NCBI RefSeq assembly: GCF_006345805.1
Contig: NC_043011.1
Coordinates: 62,880,464 to 62,944,463 of the forward strand
DNA: 64,000 nucleotides
Source of the DNA: Octopus sinensis
Lineage: Eukaryota
Reading direction: 5' to 3'
The notes under the pieces are model-generated. The model did no database searches and was not told the DNA's origin. It was given only the letters and a program-made list of their open reading frames with translations. Position 1 is the stretch's first letter; each line of letters begins with the position of its first letter. The position numbers and the translations under genes were made by a program. Shown piece by piece: positions 2,391-53,035 of the stretch.

Positions 2391-2391
<1 letters not shown>

Positions 2392-2774
2392 CTCTCTCTA
2401 TATAAACGGCAGTTTGTCTGTGCGTGTTTCTGTGTGTCTGTTTGCTTGTACCCTCACCCTGACCACGGCTTTCAACCGATTCTGATGAAACTTGGCACAC
2501 ACATAGCCCAATGTCATAACTCAAAACTAACGCAGCGAAAATTTTGAAAAGTTCCCCCAGTTCCGAAAAAAAAGGATAAATTCGACATGGGGTCGAGAAT
2601 CAGAAACACAAACCGCAAACTGTCTAGGGGACGCAACTCCACCTTTTTTAACTAAAAAAAACAATTTAACATCATTTTTTTCCATTTTTTTGCTATTTTT
2701 TGGCTATAACTCTCTAAAAATGCTTTACAGTTATTTCCCTTACAAACCTGAGCAACGCCGGGCGATACTACTAG
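2391..2774 (+). mobile_element. Non-autonomous Helitron, copy A
   Basis: Starts A|TC (2390/2391) and ends CTAG|T (2771-2774). A GC-rich subterminal hairpin (cctgagcaacgccggg) precedes the end. It interrupts an (ATT)n tract without a TSD. Confidence 0.8.
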
Positions 2775-5868: not shown

Positions 5869-5907
<39 letters not shown>

Positions 5908-5909
<2 letters not shown>

Positions 5910-6698
5910 TAACAAAAAGGGTTCAGCAAAGATTTGCTTCACCACACACCGAAGTTTAGAAATAGCAGCCAAAAATCTTAGCTATTTCTTCTATTTTAAA
6001 AGGGGTTCTCCTGGAGAAACCAAAATACTTGAAGATAATTCACACAAGCAGAGAGTAAAGCAACGAAAATCAATCAATATCTGGTTATCCATGGACGCGC
6101 GTTTCTGAATTAGGTTTTGCATAAAGAATATAAAATTATACTTTACTAAACATATTTTTCATCGGCATGGCTTTCCACGATAATTCGAAGGTACTAGAAT
6201 AGTTGAACAAATCTTTCCACCAAACGGTATTAGAACAGATCAAATTCAATGTTAGCACCGCCGAATTCAAAATATGAATGAGGTTCGCTTAGCTCCCCCG
6301 CCCGCCCGCGTGTGTCTTCAAGTAAACTTCTACAGGAAAAAAATCTGCAGTTTGTTCTCTGGGAGAAAATTCTCTTATCAATAATAACAAATGGTAAAAT
6401 TAATTAATTAAGAAGTAATTAATAATTTCACCAAGTAGAATTCGGTATGAAAAAAGGACCATTTCACGGTAAGTTTAAGTAATATTAACAAAAAGGGTTC
6501 AGCAAAGATGAAAAGTAGAAGAAATAGCTAAGATTTTTGGCTGGTATTTCTAAACTTCGGTGTGTGGTGAAGCAAATCTTTGCTGAACCCTTTTTATTAG
6601 TATTACTTAAACTTTCCGTGAAATGGTCCTTTTTTCATACCGAATTCTACTTGGTGAAATTATTAACTACTTCTTAATTAATTGATTTTACCCTTTGG

Positions 6699-6703
<5 letters not shown>
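5908..6703. mobile_element. Non-coding hammerhead-bearing inverted-arm element (retrozyme/PLE-pLTR-like)
   Basis: The direct repeat aacaaaa(a)gggttcagcaaagat occurs at about 5911 and 6487 (period about 577 bp). 6511-6703 is an inverted copy of 5908-5993 plus 6380-6490. (TA)n flanks both sides. Confidence 0.75.
6089..6170 (-). ncRNA. Variant or degenerate type I hammerhead ribozyme
   Basis: Minus strand: ccatg-CCGATGA-[53 nt, poorly paired helix II]-GAAA-cgcgcg-TC-catgg. Helix I and a palindromic helix III are present. Confidence 0.6.
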
Positions 6704-6812: not shown

Positions 6813-8080
6813 GAAAAAACAAGTCAAGATAGAAAATGCTAAAATAATTTTATAAAGAACATTTCAGTACCGGTTTCGGACATTTTGAGACCTTTTCAAC
6901 TGTAACGATTAAATAATTAAATTTAGAAAAATTAAAAGAAAAGTAAAAAAAAATTTTTGTATAGTGTTCAAATATCTGCCTTGCTCTGTCTCTCTTGTTT
7001 GCACTTGTGTGTTCGAGGTCCTTGTGAATTCTTGGTAGGGTAGAAGAAGAAGAAGGATGATGAGGAGAAGGGGTGGAAAAATTTGGGAGTGCCTTGATTG
7101 TCGTATTTTGAATGATCAGTTGCAGTTCAATTCAGGAGAATATTTCTATTGAAAGGTTTGTTTATAGAATTTATAGAAAAGCATTGGTGATAAAGTTAAG
7201 AAGTAGAAGGTGGAGCAGAAGAAGAAGAAGAAGAAAAAGAAGAAGAAGAAGAAGAAGAAAAACATGATGATGACGATGTTGATGATGATGATGAAGAAGA
7301 AGAAGAAGGAGAAGAAGAAGAAGATGATGATGATGATGGTGGTGATGATGATGACGACGATGATGAAGGAGAGGATGAAGAAGAAAGAGAAGGGAGAATA
7401 TGAATGAGTGGAAGTAGTGAGGTGTTGTATGACTTGAAGTTGGCACGTTATGGATTATAGCTGTGATTGGGGATGATTTGTAATGGATCATTTGGAATGT
7501 AATATTTGCGTGTGTATTTGTGTTATTCTAAAGCTTGGGTGTATAAATCGTTTGTCGTAGACCCGTTAAGAAGTGGCCTGTATTTTGTAATAAAGAGAGT
7601 TTCTTTACTTATTCGTTGTCTCGAGGTTGTATCGTCCCTGAATTGGTAGAAGGGTAAAATCCTGAAGCCTGGTGTTTTGTTGTTGGCGCAAGTATCTATG
7701 TGTTGGCTGAAAGTTATTTTTCTGTTTTAAGGAATTTTTATCTGGGATCTGTGCAGGGCCATTCTTTTACGCAAACTATTTTTTGTTTGGCCTATGTACT
7801 GCTCTTGACATAATGAGCAGGTTTGTGTGTATATCAGGTTCTCCGAAGCACATGTGAAGTTGCTTTTCACTGTAAACCGTTGTCCCTGTTTGAAGGAGAA
7901 CTCTGATCCCTCAATTAGATAATCGCATATCCCGCAATTGGGTCTTCCACATTTTTTTACTGTCGGCTTCTGTGTTGAAGAGTGTATTCGGGTTTGTGCT
8001 AGGGAGACTTTTCATAGATGTAGGCTGCCTCTTGGTTTTTATGATCGTGTATGTTTTATGATCGTGCGTGTTTTATGATC

Positions 8081-8947: not shown

Positions 8948-10111
8948 CTAGCAGCTTAGCCCGGCGTTGTCCGAGTATGTAAGAGCTCCTAATAGGCAAC
9001 GACTAATCGCAATCTAGTCCTTTCCCTCTGGGGAACGAAGGCGCATGTGTAGGTTGCAATTTCATCTCTTCACCCCCAAATAACTATCAAACAGCTATCG
9101 ATAATTCAACCCAAGCAATTCCTACCAGGAAGAAATTACATTCGAGACTTTACCCCCAACACCGCCATTTCTGCTAATAGTTGCTGCAGCCGCAAGTTAT
9201 TCGAATACATTTTTTGTTTAAACTTTCCTTTTAACTACCACCCCAGACGTTTTACCTTAAATTTTTGACGTACCCTAGGGGTCCTTGGACGCTACTTGCA
9301 AACTCTTGGTTTATTATAAATCGCTTTTGTCATGTGCACCAAAAAACCTTTTCCATTCGTTTGTTCAGTTTGGTCACTTTGACTTTTTCGTTGTTGTCAC
9401 TCACATGGCTGCTCGTTTTTTTGCCGTTTTTGTACATTTTTATACATTTTGGGATATTTATCCCACGTGTTCCGACAATTAAAAGGTCGAGTTGCGTCCC
9501 CTAGACAGTCTGTGATTCGTATTTAATTCACAAATCGGTTTGCTATGTGTGCCACATATGATTTAATCAACCGATTTTTTCCAGTAATAAAGTATCCTAT
9601 TGGAATAAAAAGGGCCATATAGCTCCTTGGAGCAAACATGATGCTCGCTGTGAATTTAAAAAACAAATCCTGCCAATTTGTGAAAGATATTGTCGAAAAT
9701 ATGTCATCTTGAATTTGAACGCGATTTCCCAAAATGGCATGATTTTATCGATTTTTTCTGATGATAAGGTATTGCATGGAAAACTAACGGCAGAATTAAG
9801 TTTCTTAAGGTAACATTAAGCTTCACCATGAGTTTGGTGAAAATCGATTGCAAGTTGCGAAAACTACAACAGAAAATGTGTTGCATTTAAAAAGCTTAGA
9901 TTCTCGACCCCATATCGAATTTATCGATTTTCTTCAGAACTGGGGGAACTTTTCAAAATTTTCGCTGCCTTAGTTTTGAATTATGACAATGGGTTATGTG
10001 TGTGTCAAGTTTCATCAGAATCGGTTGCAAGCCATGGTCAGGGTGAGGGTATAACCTGATAGACACACAGACACACAGACAGACAAACTGCCGTTTATAT
10101 ATATAGAGAGA
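8948..10111 (-). mobile_element. Non-autonomous Helitron, copy B (1.16 kb)
   Basis: On the minus strand it starts A|TCtctctatatatataaacggcagtttgtctg, sharing its first ~200 bp with copy A. It ends with hairpin cggacaacgccggg plus CTAG|T. Confidence 0.8.
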
Positions 10112-25272: not shown

Positions 25273-25614
25273 ACAGGAAGCGGGAGGAAATTTTTGTCTT
25301 TGTTATTCACTGTTACAATTATTTCTGGATGTTTAACCTACCTATAAGATTTTCATTTTGGTAACTACAGCAACAAGAAGCAGACGAGATAAGTGGAGAG
25401 CAAAGAGAATGTTGATAAAAATATAAACAAACGATAGAGAACATATGAAAGAGGAGGAGACATAATGAGAAAGGAGAAAGGTATAAAGATATACGTGTGT
25501 GTGGTCGCCATTTTTTTAAGAGACTATTTGTGTTTGACGAATCACCTATACTGCTAAGCTCATTAGAGGTGCGAAACAATGGTCACCGTACGGCTGGCAT
25601 AACATTCATCATTC

Positions 25615-25669
<55 letters not shown>

Positions 25670-25675
<6 letters not shown>

Positions 25676-25852
25676 GAAGGAGCTTCTACAGGACAGTACT
25701 GTTTCATTCAGAGAAATCTTCAGGAAGCTTCCTGAAGATTTCTCTTGAATGAAACAGTACTAGTCCTGTAGAATCCTTCTATATAATAAATTTTACTCTG
25801 CTATGTATTGAGTAACCTTACTTACTGTGGTTACCCGGATCAACCCGGGACC

Positions 25853-25856
<4 letters not shown>
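25670..25856. mobile_element. Near-perfect ~115 bp palindrome of two diverging hammerhead cores plus a short tail, in (TA)n
   Basis: Centre aagctt at 25725-25730. Each strand reads CTGAAGA-tttctc(t)tgaat-GAAA-cagtact(a)g-TC-ctgtagaa. Confidence 0.8.
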
Positions 25857-25913
<57 letters not shown>

Positions 25914-34894: not shown

Positions 34895-35624
34895 ATAGAA
34901 GTGGAATAGATAGGTAGATAAGGATAGTATATAAATGTTAATGGTGGTATCAACAAACAGAAAAAATAGTGTATTTAATAAAATGAATTGCAATTTTATA
35001 GCATTTAATTATTTGGATATCCATATTTTGGGCATCAATTTATTAATCTGCCCCATCATTGGCAGAAAAAGTGGGTAATCGTATGAAAGTTGGTTAAAGG
35101 ATGCAAATTTCTGATTGGTTAATCAGAGGTTGACGTCAGATTTCTGCTGCGTGAAACATTTCCCGTTTTGAATAATGGCTATCTAATAGGAATTTCTCTA
35201 TAAAATGGCAAGATTTCTTTTTATTATTGTTTTGTGGAGGTGTGGGTGTATGTTCGTGTGTGTGGTGTGTGCGTGTGGGGTGTCTGTGAGTTTGGAAAAG
35301 GGAAGAAATATAAAGAGGAAGAATAAATAATTGTGTTTGATATTTATACTACTATATATATATATATATATATATAATTACATTATATAAAAGGGCTTAG
35401 TAAAATAAATTACTTTGCCGCATACTGAACTCATTAGAAATAGCAGCTAAAAAAACTTTTTTTAAACTATTTCTAATACTTAAAGAAAGGGGAAAGCAGA
35501 AATTCTTCGCTTGCATTTTTGAGTTTGTTGGCACTGTTAGTTACGAGCAGATCTTCAGAAGCGATAAGAAGCCGAAAGGGTATGCTCCCACTTTCAGTGT
35601 TTTCAAATCCAAACCAGGGAGTTC

Positions 35625-35677
35625 TGAGCTGATGATAGAAATGTCGAGTTTGACTAATCTTGAAACGTACGTTCTCA
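35625..35677 (+). ncRNA. Type I hammerhead ribozyme, unit 1
   Basis: tgag-CTGATGA-taga aat gtc gagttt gac taa tctt-GAAA-cgtacg-TT-ctca. Helix III is palindromic and the triplet is GUU. Confidence 0.8.
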
Positions 35678-36179
35678 AATAACCTTTGCACTTGATTTTT
35701 TAATGTCTCTACCCCCATATTTTCGTGAGTTGAATTGAGCAAACACTATATGAGAGAGGTTTTCTTTAAGTATTAGAAATAGTTTTAAATTTTTTTAGCT
35801 GCTATTTCTAATGAGTTCAGTATGCGGCAAAGTAATTTATTTTACTAAGCCCTTTTATATAATGTAATAATTTGAATTCGCCTTAATGGTCCCTTTGCAT
35901 ACTGAATACTTGGTGAAATTGATTAATTAATTAATTAATTTTACCCTCAATTGTTGAAATTATAATTCATCTCTCTCTATATAATGCCTCGGATTTTACC
36001 GAAAAAAGCATAGTGTTTACTGATTTTAACCCACGCTGGTGGAAAGGGGAGAGCAGAATTCTTCGCTTGCATTTTTGAGTTTGTTGGCACTGTTAGTTAC
36101 GAGCAATCTTCAGAAGCGATAAGAAGCCGAAAGGGTATGCTCCCACTTTCAGTGTTTTCAAATCCAAACCAGGGAGTTC

Positions 36180-36232
36180 TGAGCTGATGATAGAAATGTC
36201 GAGTTTGACTAATCTTGAAACGTACGTTCTCA
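36180..36232 (+). ncRNA. Type I hammerhead ribozyme, unit 2
   Basis: Identical to 35625-35677. Confidence 0.8.
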
Positions 36233-36519
36233 AATAACCTTTGCACTTGATTTTTTAATGTCTCTCTACCCCCATATTTTCGTGAGTTGAATTGAACAAA
36301 CACTATATGAGAGAGGTTTTCTTTAAGTATTAGAAATAGAGTTTTAAAAAAGTTTTTTTAGCTGCTATTTCTAATGAGTTCAGTATGCGGCAAATTAATT
36401 ATTTTACTAAGCCCTTTTATATAATGTAATAATTTGAATTCGCCTTAAATGGTCCCTTTGCATACTGAATACTTGGTGAAATTGATTAATTAATTAATTA
36501 ATTTTACCCTCAATTGTTG

Positions 36520-36576
<57 letters not shown>

Positions 36577-36587
36577 ATTTTATATTG

Positions 36588-36619
<32 letters not shown>

Positions 36620-36714: not shown

Positions 36715-37216
36715 AAAATACACGTTATTGGACAAACAGGAATTTCGCTCCGTCAAAGTATCACCATTCACAGAGAGCAAATCTGCCACCCACAATACAG
36801 ACAGTTAAAGGTGAGTGAAGACATAGAAAGATGTGCCATGAATCTTAATCCCAATTTCCAAATATTTCCCTTTTACCAATGCTCACAGAACACCACAATG
36901 CAACAAAGGTTGAATAAAGAGTCATTTTTCATCAACAAATTTCTCCCCCAACTGAATGTGAACACACAACTCAATACAGAACACCACTAACTCTTCAATT
37001 TAAACCACTAAACCCTATACACTTTCTACATCACTCACATTTCTAATTCCTGAACTACTTACCTCTCTTATACATATAATCCAGAACTACTTACCTCCCT
37101 TACAAATAATCTCTTTTCTCAGGAACCATTAGACCTGACACCGTTTACTAACCGGTGTTGTTCAACCGATGAATAGTTAACGCGAAAACCAATTGGTTCC
37201 GTTTCAGTCTCTTACC

Positions 37217-41550: not shown

Positions 41551-43526
41551 GAAAAAAACAAGTCAAAAATAGAAAATGCTACAATAATTTTATAGTGAAC
41601 ATTTCAGTACCGGTTTCGGTCATTTTGAGACCTTTTCAACTGTAACGATTAGATAATTAAATTTAGAAAAAATAGAAGAAAAGTTTTTTTAAAGGAATAT
41701 TTCTATAGTAGTGTTCAGATATAAGTGGAATTCTGCCTTTCTCTGACTCCCTTGTTTGCACTTGTGTGTTGGAGGTCGTTGTGAATTCTTGGTAGGGTAG
41801 TAGAAGAAGAAGGCTGATGAGGAAAGGGGGTGGGAAAATCTGGGAGTGCCCTGATGGTCGTATTTTGAATGGTCAGTGGCGGCTAGCAGTCGCAGTTTAA
41901 TTCAGGAGAATATTTCTATTGAAAGGCTTGTTTATAGAATTTGCGTAGGTGTTATAATAAAAAAAAATTGGTGACAAAGTTAAGGGGTAGAAGGTGGAGA
42001 AGTAGTATAAGAAGAAGATGACGATGTTGATGATGATGATGATGAAGAAGAAGAAGAAGAAGAAGGAGAAGGAGAATGACGATGATGATGATGGTGGTGA
42101 TGATTATGACGACGATGATGATGATAATGATGATGATGAAGAAGAAGAGAAAGAAGAAGAAAAAAACAGAGAAGGGAGAATATGAATGGGTGAAAGTAGT
42201 GAGGTGTTGTATGACTTGAAGTTGGCATGTTATGGATTATAGCTGTGATTTTAGCTGTGATTAGTAATGGATTCTTTGGAATGTAATATTTGTTTGTGTA
42301 TATTTCTTTTATTCTAAAGTCGAGGTATATTAATTGTTTGTCGTAGACCCGTTAAGAAGTGGCCTGTATTTTGTAATAAAGAGAGTTTTTTTCCTTATTC
42401 GTTGTCTCGAGGTTGTGTCGTCCTTAAATTGGTAGAGGGGGAAAATCCTGAAGCTTGGTGTTTTTTGTTGGCGCAAATATCTATGTGTTGGCTAAAAGCT
42501 ATTTTTCTGTTTTGGGGAATTTTTATCTGGGATCTGTGCAGGGCCATGTGTTTACGGAAACTATTTTTTGTTTGGCCTATGTACTGCTCTTGACACCCGG
42601 AGCAGGTTCGTGAGTATATTAGGTTCTCCGAAGCACATGTGAAGTTGCTTTTCACTGTAAACCGTTGTCCCCGTTTGAAGGAGAACTCTGATCCCTCAAT
42701 TAGATAGCCGCATATCCCGCAATTGGGTCTTCTATATTTTTTTACTGTCGGCTTCTGTGTTGAAGAGTGAATTCGGGCTTGTGTTAGGAGACTTTTCATG
42801 GATTTAGGCTGTCTCTTGCTTTTTATGATCGTGTGTGTTTGGAGGATTGTGTTCATTCTGTGGTCTTTTTTTAGGAGGGGTATGTTGTGGAGGATGGTGC
42901 CGAAGGCTCTGTTATTGAGAGGGTTGTGTGTGGAGATGTATGGTAAGGCTTTTGGTTGTAAGTTTTTCTTTGATTTGGGATGTCTCAGTTTCTTGATGGT
43001 AAGTTGAAGGGCACGTTGAATGCACTTGTCAATAAGTGAAGGTGGATAGTTCCTGGTGATAAGGGTATCTTTTAGTTCTTGTAGTCGTGTGTCTCTGGTG
43101 TTTGCGTTAGAGACTATAGTGCATATCCTTTTTGCTAGGTTGAAGGGGATATTCATCCTGGTGTGTCTGGGGTGGCATGAATTGAATGGAAGATATTGCT
43201 TAGAGTCTGTGGGCTTATAATATATGTCTGTTTCTATTATATTATTAGCTTTCTTAATGAGGATATCGAGGAAGGGGAGTTGTTGCTGGCTATATTCCAT
43301 CGTGAATTGGATGTTTACGTCCAGTCCGTTTAAAATTTCCTGGAATTCTATGAGTTTTTCTATATTTTTATGCCAAAGAATGAAACAGTCATCTAGATAT
43401 CTCTTCCAGTTGTTTTCTATGTAGATGGAGAAAGGGCTGCCATATCTTTCTAGAACCTTACGATACAGACTGATCTCTAGATATCCTACGACTAGGTTGG
43501 CAAAGGAGGGGGCCATTCGTGTACCC
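41551..43526 (-). mobile_element. Penelope-like retroelement, 5'-truncated (RT C-terminal half, GIY-YIG and 3' end)
   Basis: Contains ORF 42395-43528 and a 3' region shared with 6813-8086. Flanked by (TA)n. Confidence 0.95.
41605..41642 (-). ncRNA. Minimal type I hammerhead (U3-A8 variant) in the PLE 3' end
   Basis: cag-TTGAAAA-ggtc-tcaaaat-gacc-GAAA-ccgg-TA-ctg. Helix II is perfect, helix III is the palindrome ACCGGT and the triplet is GUA. Confidence 0.78.
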
Positions 43527-43528
43527 AT
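42395..43528 (-). pseudogene. PLE reverse transcriptase / GIY-YIG endonuclease ORF fragment (377 aa)
   Basis: MGTRMAPSFANL, WKRYLDDCF, LPFLDILI, YYKPTD..SCHP, CGIC, then FTCASENLIY..CSGCQEQYIGQT. It is truncated at the N-terminus and frameshifted near the C-terminus. Confidence 0.93.
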
Positions 43529-46008: not shown

Positions 46009-46192
46009 GTGTGTATATATATGTATATATGTATATATATATACAAAAAGCAATAAAGATTCAAGTTAATTTAAATGAATTTACTTGAATATGGTACCTA
46101 ACTTAGATGCACCAAAAAAAACTATACTGTTTTAACAATACAGTAATGTGGGGTGATTATAAGCGAGAAAGAAGCAACAAGAATGGATAGGT

Positions 46193-46283
46193 TTTTAGTA
46201 CAATCGTTTCATACAAGGACAGGCTTTATTAAAAGTTGTAAAAATTACAGCATATAAATGTGTCCCGTACTCATCAGCTAAAA
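46193..46283 (-). ncRNA. Type I hammerhead ribozyme with extended helix II
   Basis: ttttag-CTGATGA-gtac gggaca..tgtcctt gtat-GAAA-cgattg-TA-ctaaaa. It lies in a ~550 bp unique segment (about 46045-46600) between (TA)n tracts. Confidence 0.82.
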
Positions 46284-46628
46284 TACATGTGAGTTCTCTA
46301 GACATCCTAGTGGTTAAGGCTATACTCATGAAGTAATGAAGATAATTAAGTAACATAAACATATACAGATATCCAAAGTTCATTAAAGTTCTTTAAAGAT
46401 GATGTACAGTCTTATCACAGAATTTTAAAAAAGTTCTAATAGCAACCCAGAGAAGGTGACCTAATCCATAGTGCACATATGAATTTCCAGAGATATGATG
46501 AGGGATTACATACTCACAGAAGACAAATTCATCCATTGTTAATCACAACGAGGTGGGTCTCAATTCCTGCTTATTAGCATTACAGAGAGGGTGAATTAAT
46601 CCTTTGTATAGATGCACAATGTATATAT

Positions 46629-52277: not shown

Positions 52278-53035
52278 GGCGGCGAGTTGGCAGAAACGTT
52301 AGCACGCCGGGCGAAATGCGTAGCCGTATTTCGTCTGGCATTAGGCTCTGAGTTCAAATCCGAGGTCGATTTTACCTTTCATCATTTCGGGATCGATAAA
52401 TTAAGTACCAGTTACGCACTGGGGTCGATGTGATCGACTTAGTCAATTTGTCTGTCCTTGTCTGTCCCCTCTGTGTTTAACCCCTTGTGGGTAGTAAAGA
52501 AATAGGTATTTCGTCTGCCGCTACGTTCTGAGTTCTAATTCCGCGGAAGTCAACTTTGGCTTTCATCCTTTCAGGGTCGATTAAATAGGTACCAATTACG
52601 CACTAGGGTCGATATAATCGACTTAATCCATTTGTCTGTCTTTGTCCCTTGTGGGCAGTAAAGAAATAGGTATTTCATCTGTTTTTACTTTGTCAGTTCA
52701 AATTTCGCCGAGTTTGACTTTGCCTTTCATCCTTTCGGGGTCGATATATTAAGTACCAGTTACGCACTGGGGTCGATGAAATCGACTTAATCCGTGTGTC
52801 TATCCTTGTTTATCCCCTCTATGTCTAGCCCCTTGTAGACAACAAAGAAATAAGAAACGTTAGCACGCCGGGTGTAATACTAGTTGTATTTCGTCTGTTG
52901 CTACGTTCTGAGTTCAAATTCCGCCGAGGTCGACTTTTCCTTTCATCCTTTCGGGCTCGACAAATTAAGTACCAGTTGCATACTTTGGTCGACTAGCCCC
53001 CTCCTCCAAAATTTCGGGTCTTGTGCCTAGAGCAG
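52278..53035 (+). mobile_element. SINE family 1 tandem multimer (four core units)
   Basis: The core ctttcatcctttcggggtcga recurs at about 52376, 52560, 52724 and 52940. Confidence 0.9.

What the first reader, a model, noticed from the sequence alone, without database searches (positions are those of the whole stretch)
35377..36522. Young tandem hammerhead dimer able to release a 555 nt monomer
Two identical hammerheads lie 555 bp apart in near-identical direct repeats. Cleavage at both (after 35673 and 36228) would excise a unit-length RNA that could circularise, which is the defining retrozyme arrangement. The palindromic ACGTACGT helix III would allow dimeric folding. The GUU triplet and U-U helix II closure are non-optimal and could attenuate cleavage.
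Basis: partly seen in the sequence, partly recalled or inferred. Interest (0 to 1): 0.8.

Follow-up and report, generated by a model that had tools for sequence, protein, structure and literature searches.

The report
Hammerhead repeat hitchhiking on Penelope retrotransposons
This is one of hundreds of copies of a 555-base non-coding repeat that carries a predicted self-cutting RNA, and its two-armed insertions into TA runs look like those of Penelope-type jumping genes, which likely copy it, probably from a small RNA circle.

Summary
Real, and a new member of a known kind. Two identical type I hammerheads lie 555 nt apart (predicted cuts after 35673 and 36228). The locus is not a local dimer. 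Across 81 loci, 48 of 51 simple two-arm insertions have divergent arms, one ending near unit position 288 and the other near 190. A young autonomous Penelope-like element (PLE) in the same genome follows the same rule. So this is a non-LTR retrozyme, likely mobilised by a PLE reverse transcriptase that primes at two internal sites. The template was homogeneous: outside one locus, 0 of 124 unit-private variants recur in the other arm. That favours a monomer circle but does not prove it. Helices covary with a sister family, and the GUU triplet and helix II mismatch are conserved there, so they are not decay. Cleavage, circles and the helper element are not shown.

The parts
35353..35376 (.). (TA)n target, left flank
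   Evidence: sequence; (TA)4 or longer at both flanks in 71 of 81 loci and at one or both in 81 of 81
35377..35488 (-). Inverted 5'-truncated arm (unit positions 88-198), ending at the short end
35485..35488 (.). Central junction of the two arms, 4-nt overlap GAAA
   Evidence: 23 of 51 two-arm loci show a 2-7 nt overlap
35485..36523 (+). Direct arm: 5'-truncated tandem array, unit positions 369-555, 1-555 and 1-288, ending at the long end
35615..35688 (+). Type I hammerhead 1 (core 35629-35635 and 35662-35665; GUU; predicted cut after 35673)
35674..36228 (+). 555-nt cut-to-cut monomer (predicted circle); no coding function evident
35754..35963 (+). Conserved three-hairpin region (unit 81-290) holding both end sites: short site about 35854-35872 in a predicted loop, long site about 35957-35964 after the last hairpin; likely the reverse-transcriptase recognition signal
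   Evidence: fold z -5.9; inherited variants in 8 of 210 columns vs 32 of 268 elsewhere, p=0.0014; related region in sister families
36170..36243 (+). Type I hammerhead 2, identical to the first; predicted cut after 36228
36522..36619 (.). (TA)n target, right flank

Best explanation
This locus is one insertion of a non-coding, hammerhead-bearing 555-nt repeat family that lands in (TA)n as two divergent arms with two fixed ends, and it was likely copied in by a Penelope-like reverse transcriptase, probably from a self-cut, re-ligated monomer RNA circle. Steps: (1) inferred: arrays are transcribed, the hammerheads cut slowly (possibly as dimers through ACGUACGU), and monomers are ligated. (2) Shown as a pattern, inferred as mechanism: a PLE endonuclease cuts both strands of (TA)n, and two reverse transcriptases start internally, one at about position 190 and one at about 288 of the unit. 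(3) Shown: both arms read through the cleavage site seamlessly, stop at scattered points and are joined, often through a few shared bases. (4) Shown: some long arrays were rearranged later by unit duplication. My odds: non-autonomous PLE/retrozyme about 0.9; circle as the usual template about 0.6.
For: Family: 260 exact cores; 126 matches in the 40 scored of 2202 candidates. Architecture in 81 loci: 51 simple two-arm loci, all divergent; 48 have one long and one short end, 0 long-long, 1 short-short, 2 other (48 of 49, p=2e-13). (TA)n flanks in 81 of 81 vs 9% of random 50-nt windows. An autonomous RT + GIY-YIG family also ends in (TA)n with one long and one short end in 15 of 15 two-arm insertions (14 by script, 1 by eye). 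PMC11167929 shows a PLE protein cutting and extending both strands and starting at two internal RNA sites. Homogeneous template: 0.8% difference within an arm, 1.0% between arms, 2.0% between loci. Unit-private variants shared with the other arm: 0 of 124 in 26 loci, 11 of 17 in L057. Locus-unique variants are fixed in both arms in L041, L094 and L027+28. 204 of 223 cleavage-site junctions are exact. Ribozyme conserved: 4 of 14 pairs change on both sides, 98% of cells paired; inherited variants in 3 of 77 ribozyme columns vs 32 of 268 (p=0.052).
Against: No cleavage, transcript or circle is shown. L057 has variants mirrored in register in both arms (11 of 17) that occur nowhere else in the assembly; this points to a heterogeneous multimer template, or arm-to-arm conversion, at least once. 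A very young homogeneous master array would also give unmirrored arms, and only 6 of 34 testable loci carry a locus-wide variant found in at most 2 loci. The hammerhead fold is 5-6 kcal/mol above the predicted minimum, and it does not beat shuffles on its own. Only 1 of 9 predicted Xenopus dimers cleaved in vitro. In the anole PLE, ribozyme mutants did not affect insertion in vitro. No autonomous element sharing this sequence was found. Loci were picked by best match or exact core, which favours young, ribozyme-intact copies.
Confidence: 0.6

Rival explanations
1. Same non-autonomous PLE, but the template is an uncleaved linear multimer read from a young master array. The hammerhead is a slow or late-acting relic of a PLE terminal repeat, and circles, if made, are by-products.
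For: L057 mirrored variants. 5' ends do not pile up at the cut site: 3 real of 146 arms start within 6 nt of it. Unprocessed RNA was the dominant substrate for the anole PLE. The autonomous family here forms seamless tandems without a canonical hammerhead. 6 of 72 unbiased arms start at unit 494-508, just before the ribozyme, which could mark a transcription start (weak).
Against: 26 of 27 testable loci show no variant sharing between arms. Locus-unique haplotypes fixed across both arms need a single-unit bottleneck. Ribozyme helices covary, and inherited variants avoid the ribozyme.
Confidence: 0.3
2. A DNA-level satellite or foldback element: arrays and inverted arms arise from unequal crossover, slippage or DNA rolling-circle copying, with no RNA step.
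For: Periodic variants inside single arms show later duplication of units (L044 period 4, L040 period 2, L053, L027+28).
Against: Fixed outer ends with scattered inner ends, strict long/short pairing, (TA)n targeting and the same anatomy as an RT-encoding family are not explained by DNA recombination.
Confidence: 0.07
3. The duplication or inversion is an assembly or long-read foldback artefact.
For: The two units differ mainly by small indels in runs, as long-read errors do.
Against: The two arms end at different fixed positions across dozens of loci. The units carry private substitutions. Contigs from runs of four studies and two organism labels hold 90-100% alike pieces of the unit.
Confidence: 0.02

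Closest known systems
Non-LTR retrozymes of animals (Cervera and de la Pena 2020, PMC7229834; Li, Clavereau and Pollet preprint 10.64898/2026.07.22.740005)
   Same: Non-coding, low-GC tandem units, each with a type I hammerhead; dispersed monomers to multimers; strongly self-paired unit. The axolotl HHR_Amex2 has the same 2-bp helix III with tetraloop and U.U at the base of helix II. PLEs were proposed as the mobiliser.
   Different: The unit is 555 nt (170-400 nt in the 2020 paper; within the 51-972 bp of the preprint). No target-site duplication can be recognised inside (TA)n. Two divergent arms with two fixed internal ends are not described in the parts I read. Expression is not shown here.
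Penelope-like elements, EN+ (pLTR, inverted 5'-truncated copy, tail; PMC8557442, PMC11167929)
   Same: Partial tandem plus an adjacent inverted 5'-truncated copy; a tail at one end only; (TA)n preference (reported for Naiads); hammerhead in the terminal repeat; two internal start sites.
   Different: No ORF. The tail is about 100 nt rather than 30-40 nt. The ribozyme keeps a helix III, whereas PLE ribozymes are usually minimal. No sequence link to an autonomous family was found.
Newt satellite 2 / dimeric hammerheads (PMC6155905 passage)
   Same: Tandem units with a weak, palindromic helix III. The 8-bp duplex is predicted at -9.8 kcal/mol vs +2.4 for the hairpin. Palindromes are kept in four families here: ACGTACGT, ACGTTAACGT, ACGCGCGT, ACGATCGT.
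   Different: Dispersed short arrays in (TA)n with inverted arms; GUU triplet; dimer cleavage not tested.
Plant LTR retrozymes
   Same: Two hammerheads predicted to release a unit-length RNA.
   Different: Those have type III ribozymes in LTRs with PBS, PPT and 4-bp TSD; this element has a type I ribozyme in tandem units.

Membership tests
Non-LTR retrozyme | Type I hammerhead with intact core in each tandem unit | tested here: met
   core intact in 200 of 209 units (sample biased to intact cores)
Non-LTR retrozyme | [quoted passage not shown] | tested here: met
Non-LTR retrozyme | No protein-coding capacity, no LTR | tested here: met
   arms consist only of unit sequence in the loci mapped; the ORFs of 200 codons or more in L001-L076 lie outside the arms; PBS and PPT were not searched
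Non-LTR retrozyme | Self-cleavage in vitro | not testable with these tools
   fold predicted accessible at a cost of 5-6 kcal/mol
Non-LTR retrozyme | Expressed as linear and circular monomers | tested here: inconclusive
   only contigs from runs guessed to be RNA
Non-LTR retrozyme | Large target-site duplications (when present) | tested here: inconclusive
   cannot be read inside (TA)n flanks
Non-autonomous Penelope-like element | Partial tandem with adjacent inverted 5'-truncated copy | tested here: met
   51 of 81 loci simple two-arm, 5 complex, 25 single-arm
Non-autonomous Penelope-like element | Tail at one end only (two internal start sites) | tested here: met
   48 of 51 one long plus one short; about 100 nt apart instead of 30-40
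Non-autonomous Penelope-like element | Sequence similarity to the terminal repeat of an autonomous PLE | tested here: inconclusive
   none to the one autonomous family examined (40 stretches); no linked PLE ORF next to sister families; other PLE families not surveyed
Autonomous PLE | RT plus GIY-YIG ORF | tested here: not met
   none inside the element; PLE fragments nearby are separate insertions
LTR retrozyme | Type III hammerhead in LTRs | tested here: not met
   helix I is the open helix; tandem units

The most novel reading that the evidence does not exclude
A dimeric Penelope-type reverse transcriptase grips one circular ribozyme RNA at two fixed sites 100 nt apart and rolls round it from both ends of a cut (TA)n, writing two divergent concatemers. 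These insertions would be a direct genomic record of rolling-circle reverse transcription of retrozyme circles, and the long/short rule a general, asymmetric feature of PLE integration.
Probability: 0.4. Interest if true: 0.72.

Novelty: new member of a known kind. Interest (0 to 1): 0.45.

Why it matters
Who mobilises animal retrozymes, and whether circles are the template, has rested on co-occurrence and similarity to PLE termini. This family adds mechanical fingerprints: PLE-type inverted arms, two fixed start sites used once each per insertion, and one haplotype per insertion. A young autonomous PLE with open reading frames, the same target and the same end rule lies in the same genome, so a defined RNA-enzyme pair can be tested in vitro. 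The strict long/short pairing also refines the in vitro finding that start sites did not appear to differ between strands.

Tried and rejected
Rfam at gathering score: no hit. The whole-window repeat search was swamped by microsatellites. RNA runs: no RNA holder listed; 14 of 19 rows were only guessed to be RNA. Four of these were laid as contigs; they hold pieces of the unit, but none of the 32 listed pieces (271 not shown) bridges a cut site with 31 letters on each side, and contigs cannot show ends, strand or level. 5' ends at the cut site, as a sign of cleavage in vivo: 3 real of 146, about 1.6 expected, rejected. The idea that all two-arm loci copy one heterogeneous multimer came from L057 and was rejected. 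A source locus for the L057 variant: none in the assembly. Helper hunt: the young Neptune-like family shares no sequence and has no canonical hammerhead; sister families B, C and D have no attached ORF in 20, 20 and 30 stretches; other PLE remnants in the window end in (TTA)n or (TTC/TCA)n. Pfam found nothing for partial ORFs at 1e-3. The scan's earlier findings held nothing. Paper searches found no description of this family or of the long/short rule; the library lacks most subscription papers, and I read no supplements, where such families could be listed. Dropped before counting: L056 (no match) and L100 (apparent duplicate of L034); L027 and L028 were counted as one locus.

Full report
Observation. 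Two hammerhead cores start at 35629 and 36184 and end in GAAACGTACGTT at 35673 and 36228. They are type I: helix I (UGAG/CUCA, extended by GUU/AAC and CAGGG/CUUUG) is the open helix. Helix II is AGA/UCU plus GUC/GAC closed by U.U, helix III is two pairs with a GUAC loop, and the triplet is GUU. GUU is listed among active NUH sites in a review passage. The 160 nt around the two ribozymes are identical; the repeats differ by 3 substitutions and 9 indel events in 485 columns. BLAST of the region also shows that 35377-35488 is an inverted copy of unit positions 88-198. The whole is (TA)n, inverted short arm, 4-nt overlap, 1.87-unit direct arm, (TA)n.

Family. The genome (2.72 Gb; from recall it looks like an octopus-type genome, not verified) holds 260 exact copies of the 49-nt core, control 0. 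A 461-nt query gave 126 matches in 40 scored of 2202 candidates. I mapped 81 loci, the window included, picked from these two lists, so they lean to young, ribozyme-intact copies. All 81 touch (TA)n, 71 on both sides, against 9% of random 50-nt windows. There are 25 single-arm, 5 complex and 51 simple two-arm loci, and the simple ones are all divergent. Outer ends are fixed: a short end in the UAUA-rich stretch at about 188-200 and a long end at about 288. Of the 51, 48 use one of each, none uses two long ends, one uses two short ends and two have another end (p=2e-13 for 48 of 49). Inner ends are scattered. Junctions show a 2-7 nt overlap in 23, are blunt in 10, carry inserts in 15 and longer overlaps in 3. 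118 of 146 arms run through the cut site, and 204 of 223 such junctions are exact; the rest are point or run-length changes.

This is Penelope anatomy. Craig et al. (PMC8557442, passages) describe partial tandems, an adjacent inverted 5'-truncated copy, a tail at one end and a (TA)n preference. Frangieh et al. (PMC11167929, parts 1-2 of 4) show a PLE protein cutting and extending both strands, starting at two internal RNA sites that bound the tail, and predicted to be a dimer. In this genome a young autonomous family (132 matches at 95-100% identity, open frames of about 811 codons, RVT_1 and a weak GIY-YIG match) also ends in (TA)n. It has one long and one short end in 15 of 15 two-arm insertions (one classed by eye). 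Its linker motif suggests the Neptune group (motif seen, described for Neptune and Nematis; no tree built). It shares no sequence with the 555-nt unit and shows no canonical hammerhead, so it is a candidate helper only.

Template. Internal priming needs no RNA 3' end, so a circle can serve. A cleaved linear monomer could give at most 288 nt, yet most arms are longer and cross the cut site, so the template was a circle or an uncleaved multimer. Units differ by 0.8% within an arm, 1.0% between arms and 2.0% between loci. If the template were a transcript of an aged array, its unit-specific variants should appear in both arms. They do in L057 (11 of 17, in register from the outer ends) and in none of 124 cases in 26 other loci. 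L057's variant is found nowhere else in the assembly. Variants unique to a locus yet fixed in all covering units of both arms occur in L041, L094 and L027+28; 6 of 34 testable loci carry a locus-wide variant found in at most 2 loci. This points to a single-unit bottleneck, as rolling-circle copying predicts, but a pristine master array is not excluded. Periodic variants inside single arms (L044, L040, L053, L027+28) show that long arrays also change after insertion.

Selection. Private variants are even along the unit (0.3-0.4%). Inherited variants fall in 3 of 77 ribozyme columns and 8 of 210 columns of region 81-290, against 32 of 268 elsewhere (p=0.052 and 0.0014). Region 81-290 folds into three hairpins (z -5.9), with the short site in a loop and the long site after the last hairpin. 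A 567-nt sister family, 70-85% alike, keeps the core, GUU, a helix II mismatch (A.A) and a palindromic helix III. Four of 14 pairs change on both sides, 98% of cells pair, and slid controls reach 21-44% (9 related rows, so suggestive only). Against activity: the ribozyme fold is 5-6 kcal/mol above the minimum; 1 of 9 Xenopus dimers cleaved (preprint 10.64898/2026.07.22.740005, parts 1-3 of 5); and anole PLE ribozyme mutants still inserted in vitro.

Comparison and verdict. It meets every sequence criterion of a non-LTR retrozyme that could be read here (PMC7229834, passages and parts 2-4 of 6) and the insertion criteria of a non-autonomous PLE. Cleavage, circles and a sequence-related helper are open. 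An octopus repeat annotation (PMC13282606, passages) lists recently active Penelope families and does not mention ribozymes. PMC6155905 and PMC3138052 were seen as passages only; no supplements were read. Verdict: new member of a known kind, interest 0.45. The added value lies in the long/short rule and the one-haplotype arms, which make the retrozyme mobilisation model directly testable.

Noticed in passing
window 5903-6700: Older sister family (B) in (TA)n with a related hairpin end region; type I hammerhead near 6170 on the minus strand (GUC, ACGCGCGT) whose core reads CCGAUGA here, probably inactive; 52 matches in 40 scored of 607 candidates.
   Followed up: partly
window 46060-46600 (-): A further hammerhead repeat (family D type, GUA) between TA runs; a close relative has 2046 first-look candidates and no attached ORF in 30 stretches.
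   Followed up: partly
L166-L185: 567-nt sister family C, 70-85% alike to the 555-nt unit, with similar two-arm anatomy and compensatory changes.
   Followed up: partly
L134:4288-6720 and L104-L143: Young autonomous PLE family with open RT + GIY-YIG frames, (TA)n target, 40-nt tail, seamless tandems and no canonical hammerhead.
   Followed up: partly
window 36727-37216 (+), 42470-43528 (-), 7565-8002 (-): Remnants of another PLE family (52-57% protein identity to the young family) that end in (TTA)n or (TTC/TCA)n; different PLE families seem tied to different microsatellites.
   Followed up: no
L057:3138-6719: Both arms carry the same unit-specific variants in register from the outer ends, including a GAAA to GAAT change in one ribozyme per arm; unexplained exception.
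   Followed up: yes
L034 and L100: Apparently one insertion present twice with similar flanks on different contigs.
   Followed up: no
window 52482-52809: Two head-to-tail copies of a 164-nt repeat, 81% alike.
   Followed up: no
window 2391-2601 and 9899-10109: 211-nt inverted pair, 90% alike, probably two copies of a dispersed repeat.
   Followed up: no
window 25600-25900: Short inverted pair between TA runs with CTGAAGA...GAAA on both strands, possibly another small two-arm ribozyme-like element.
   Followed up: no
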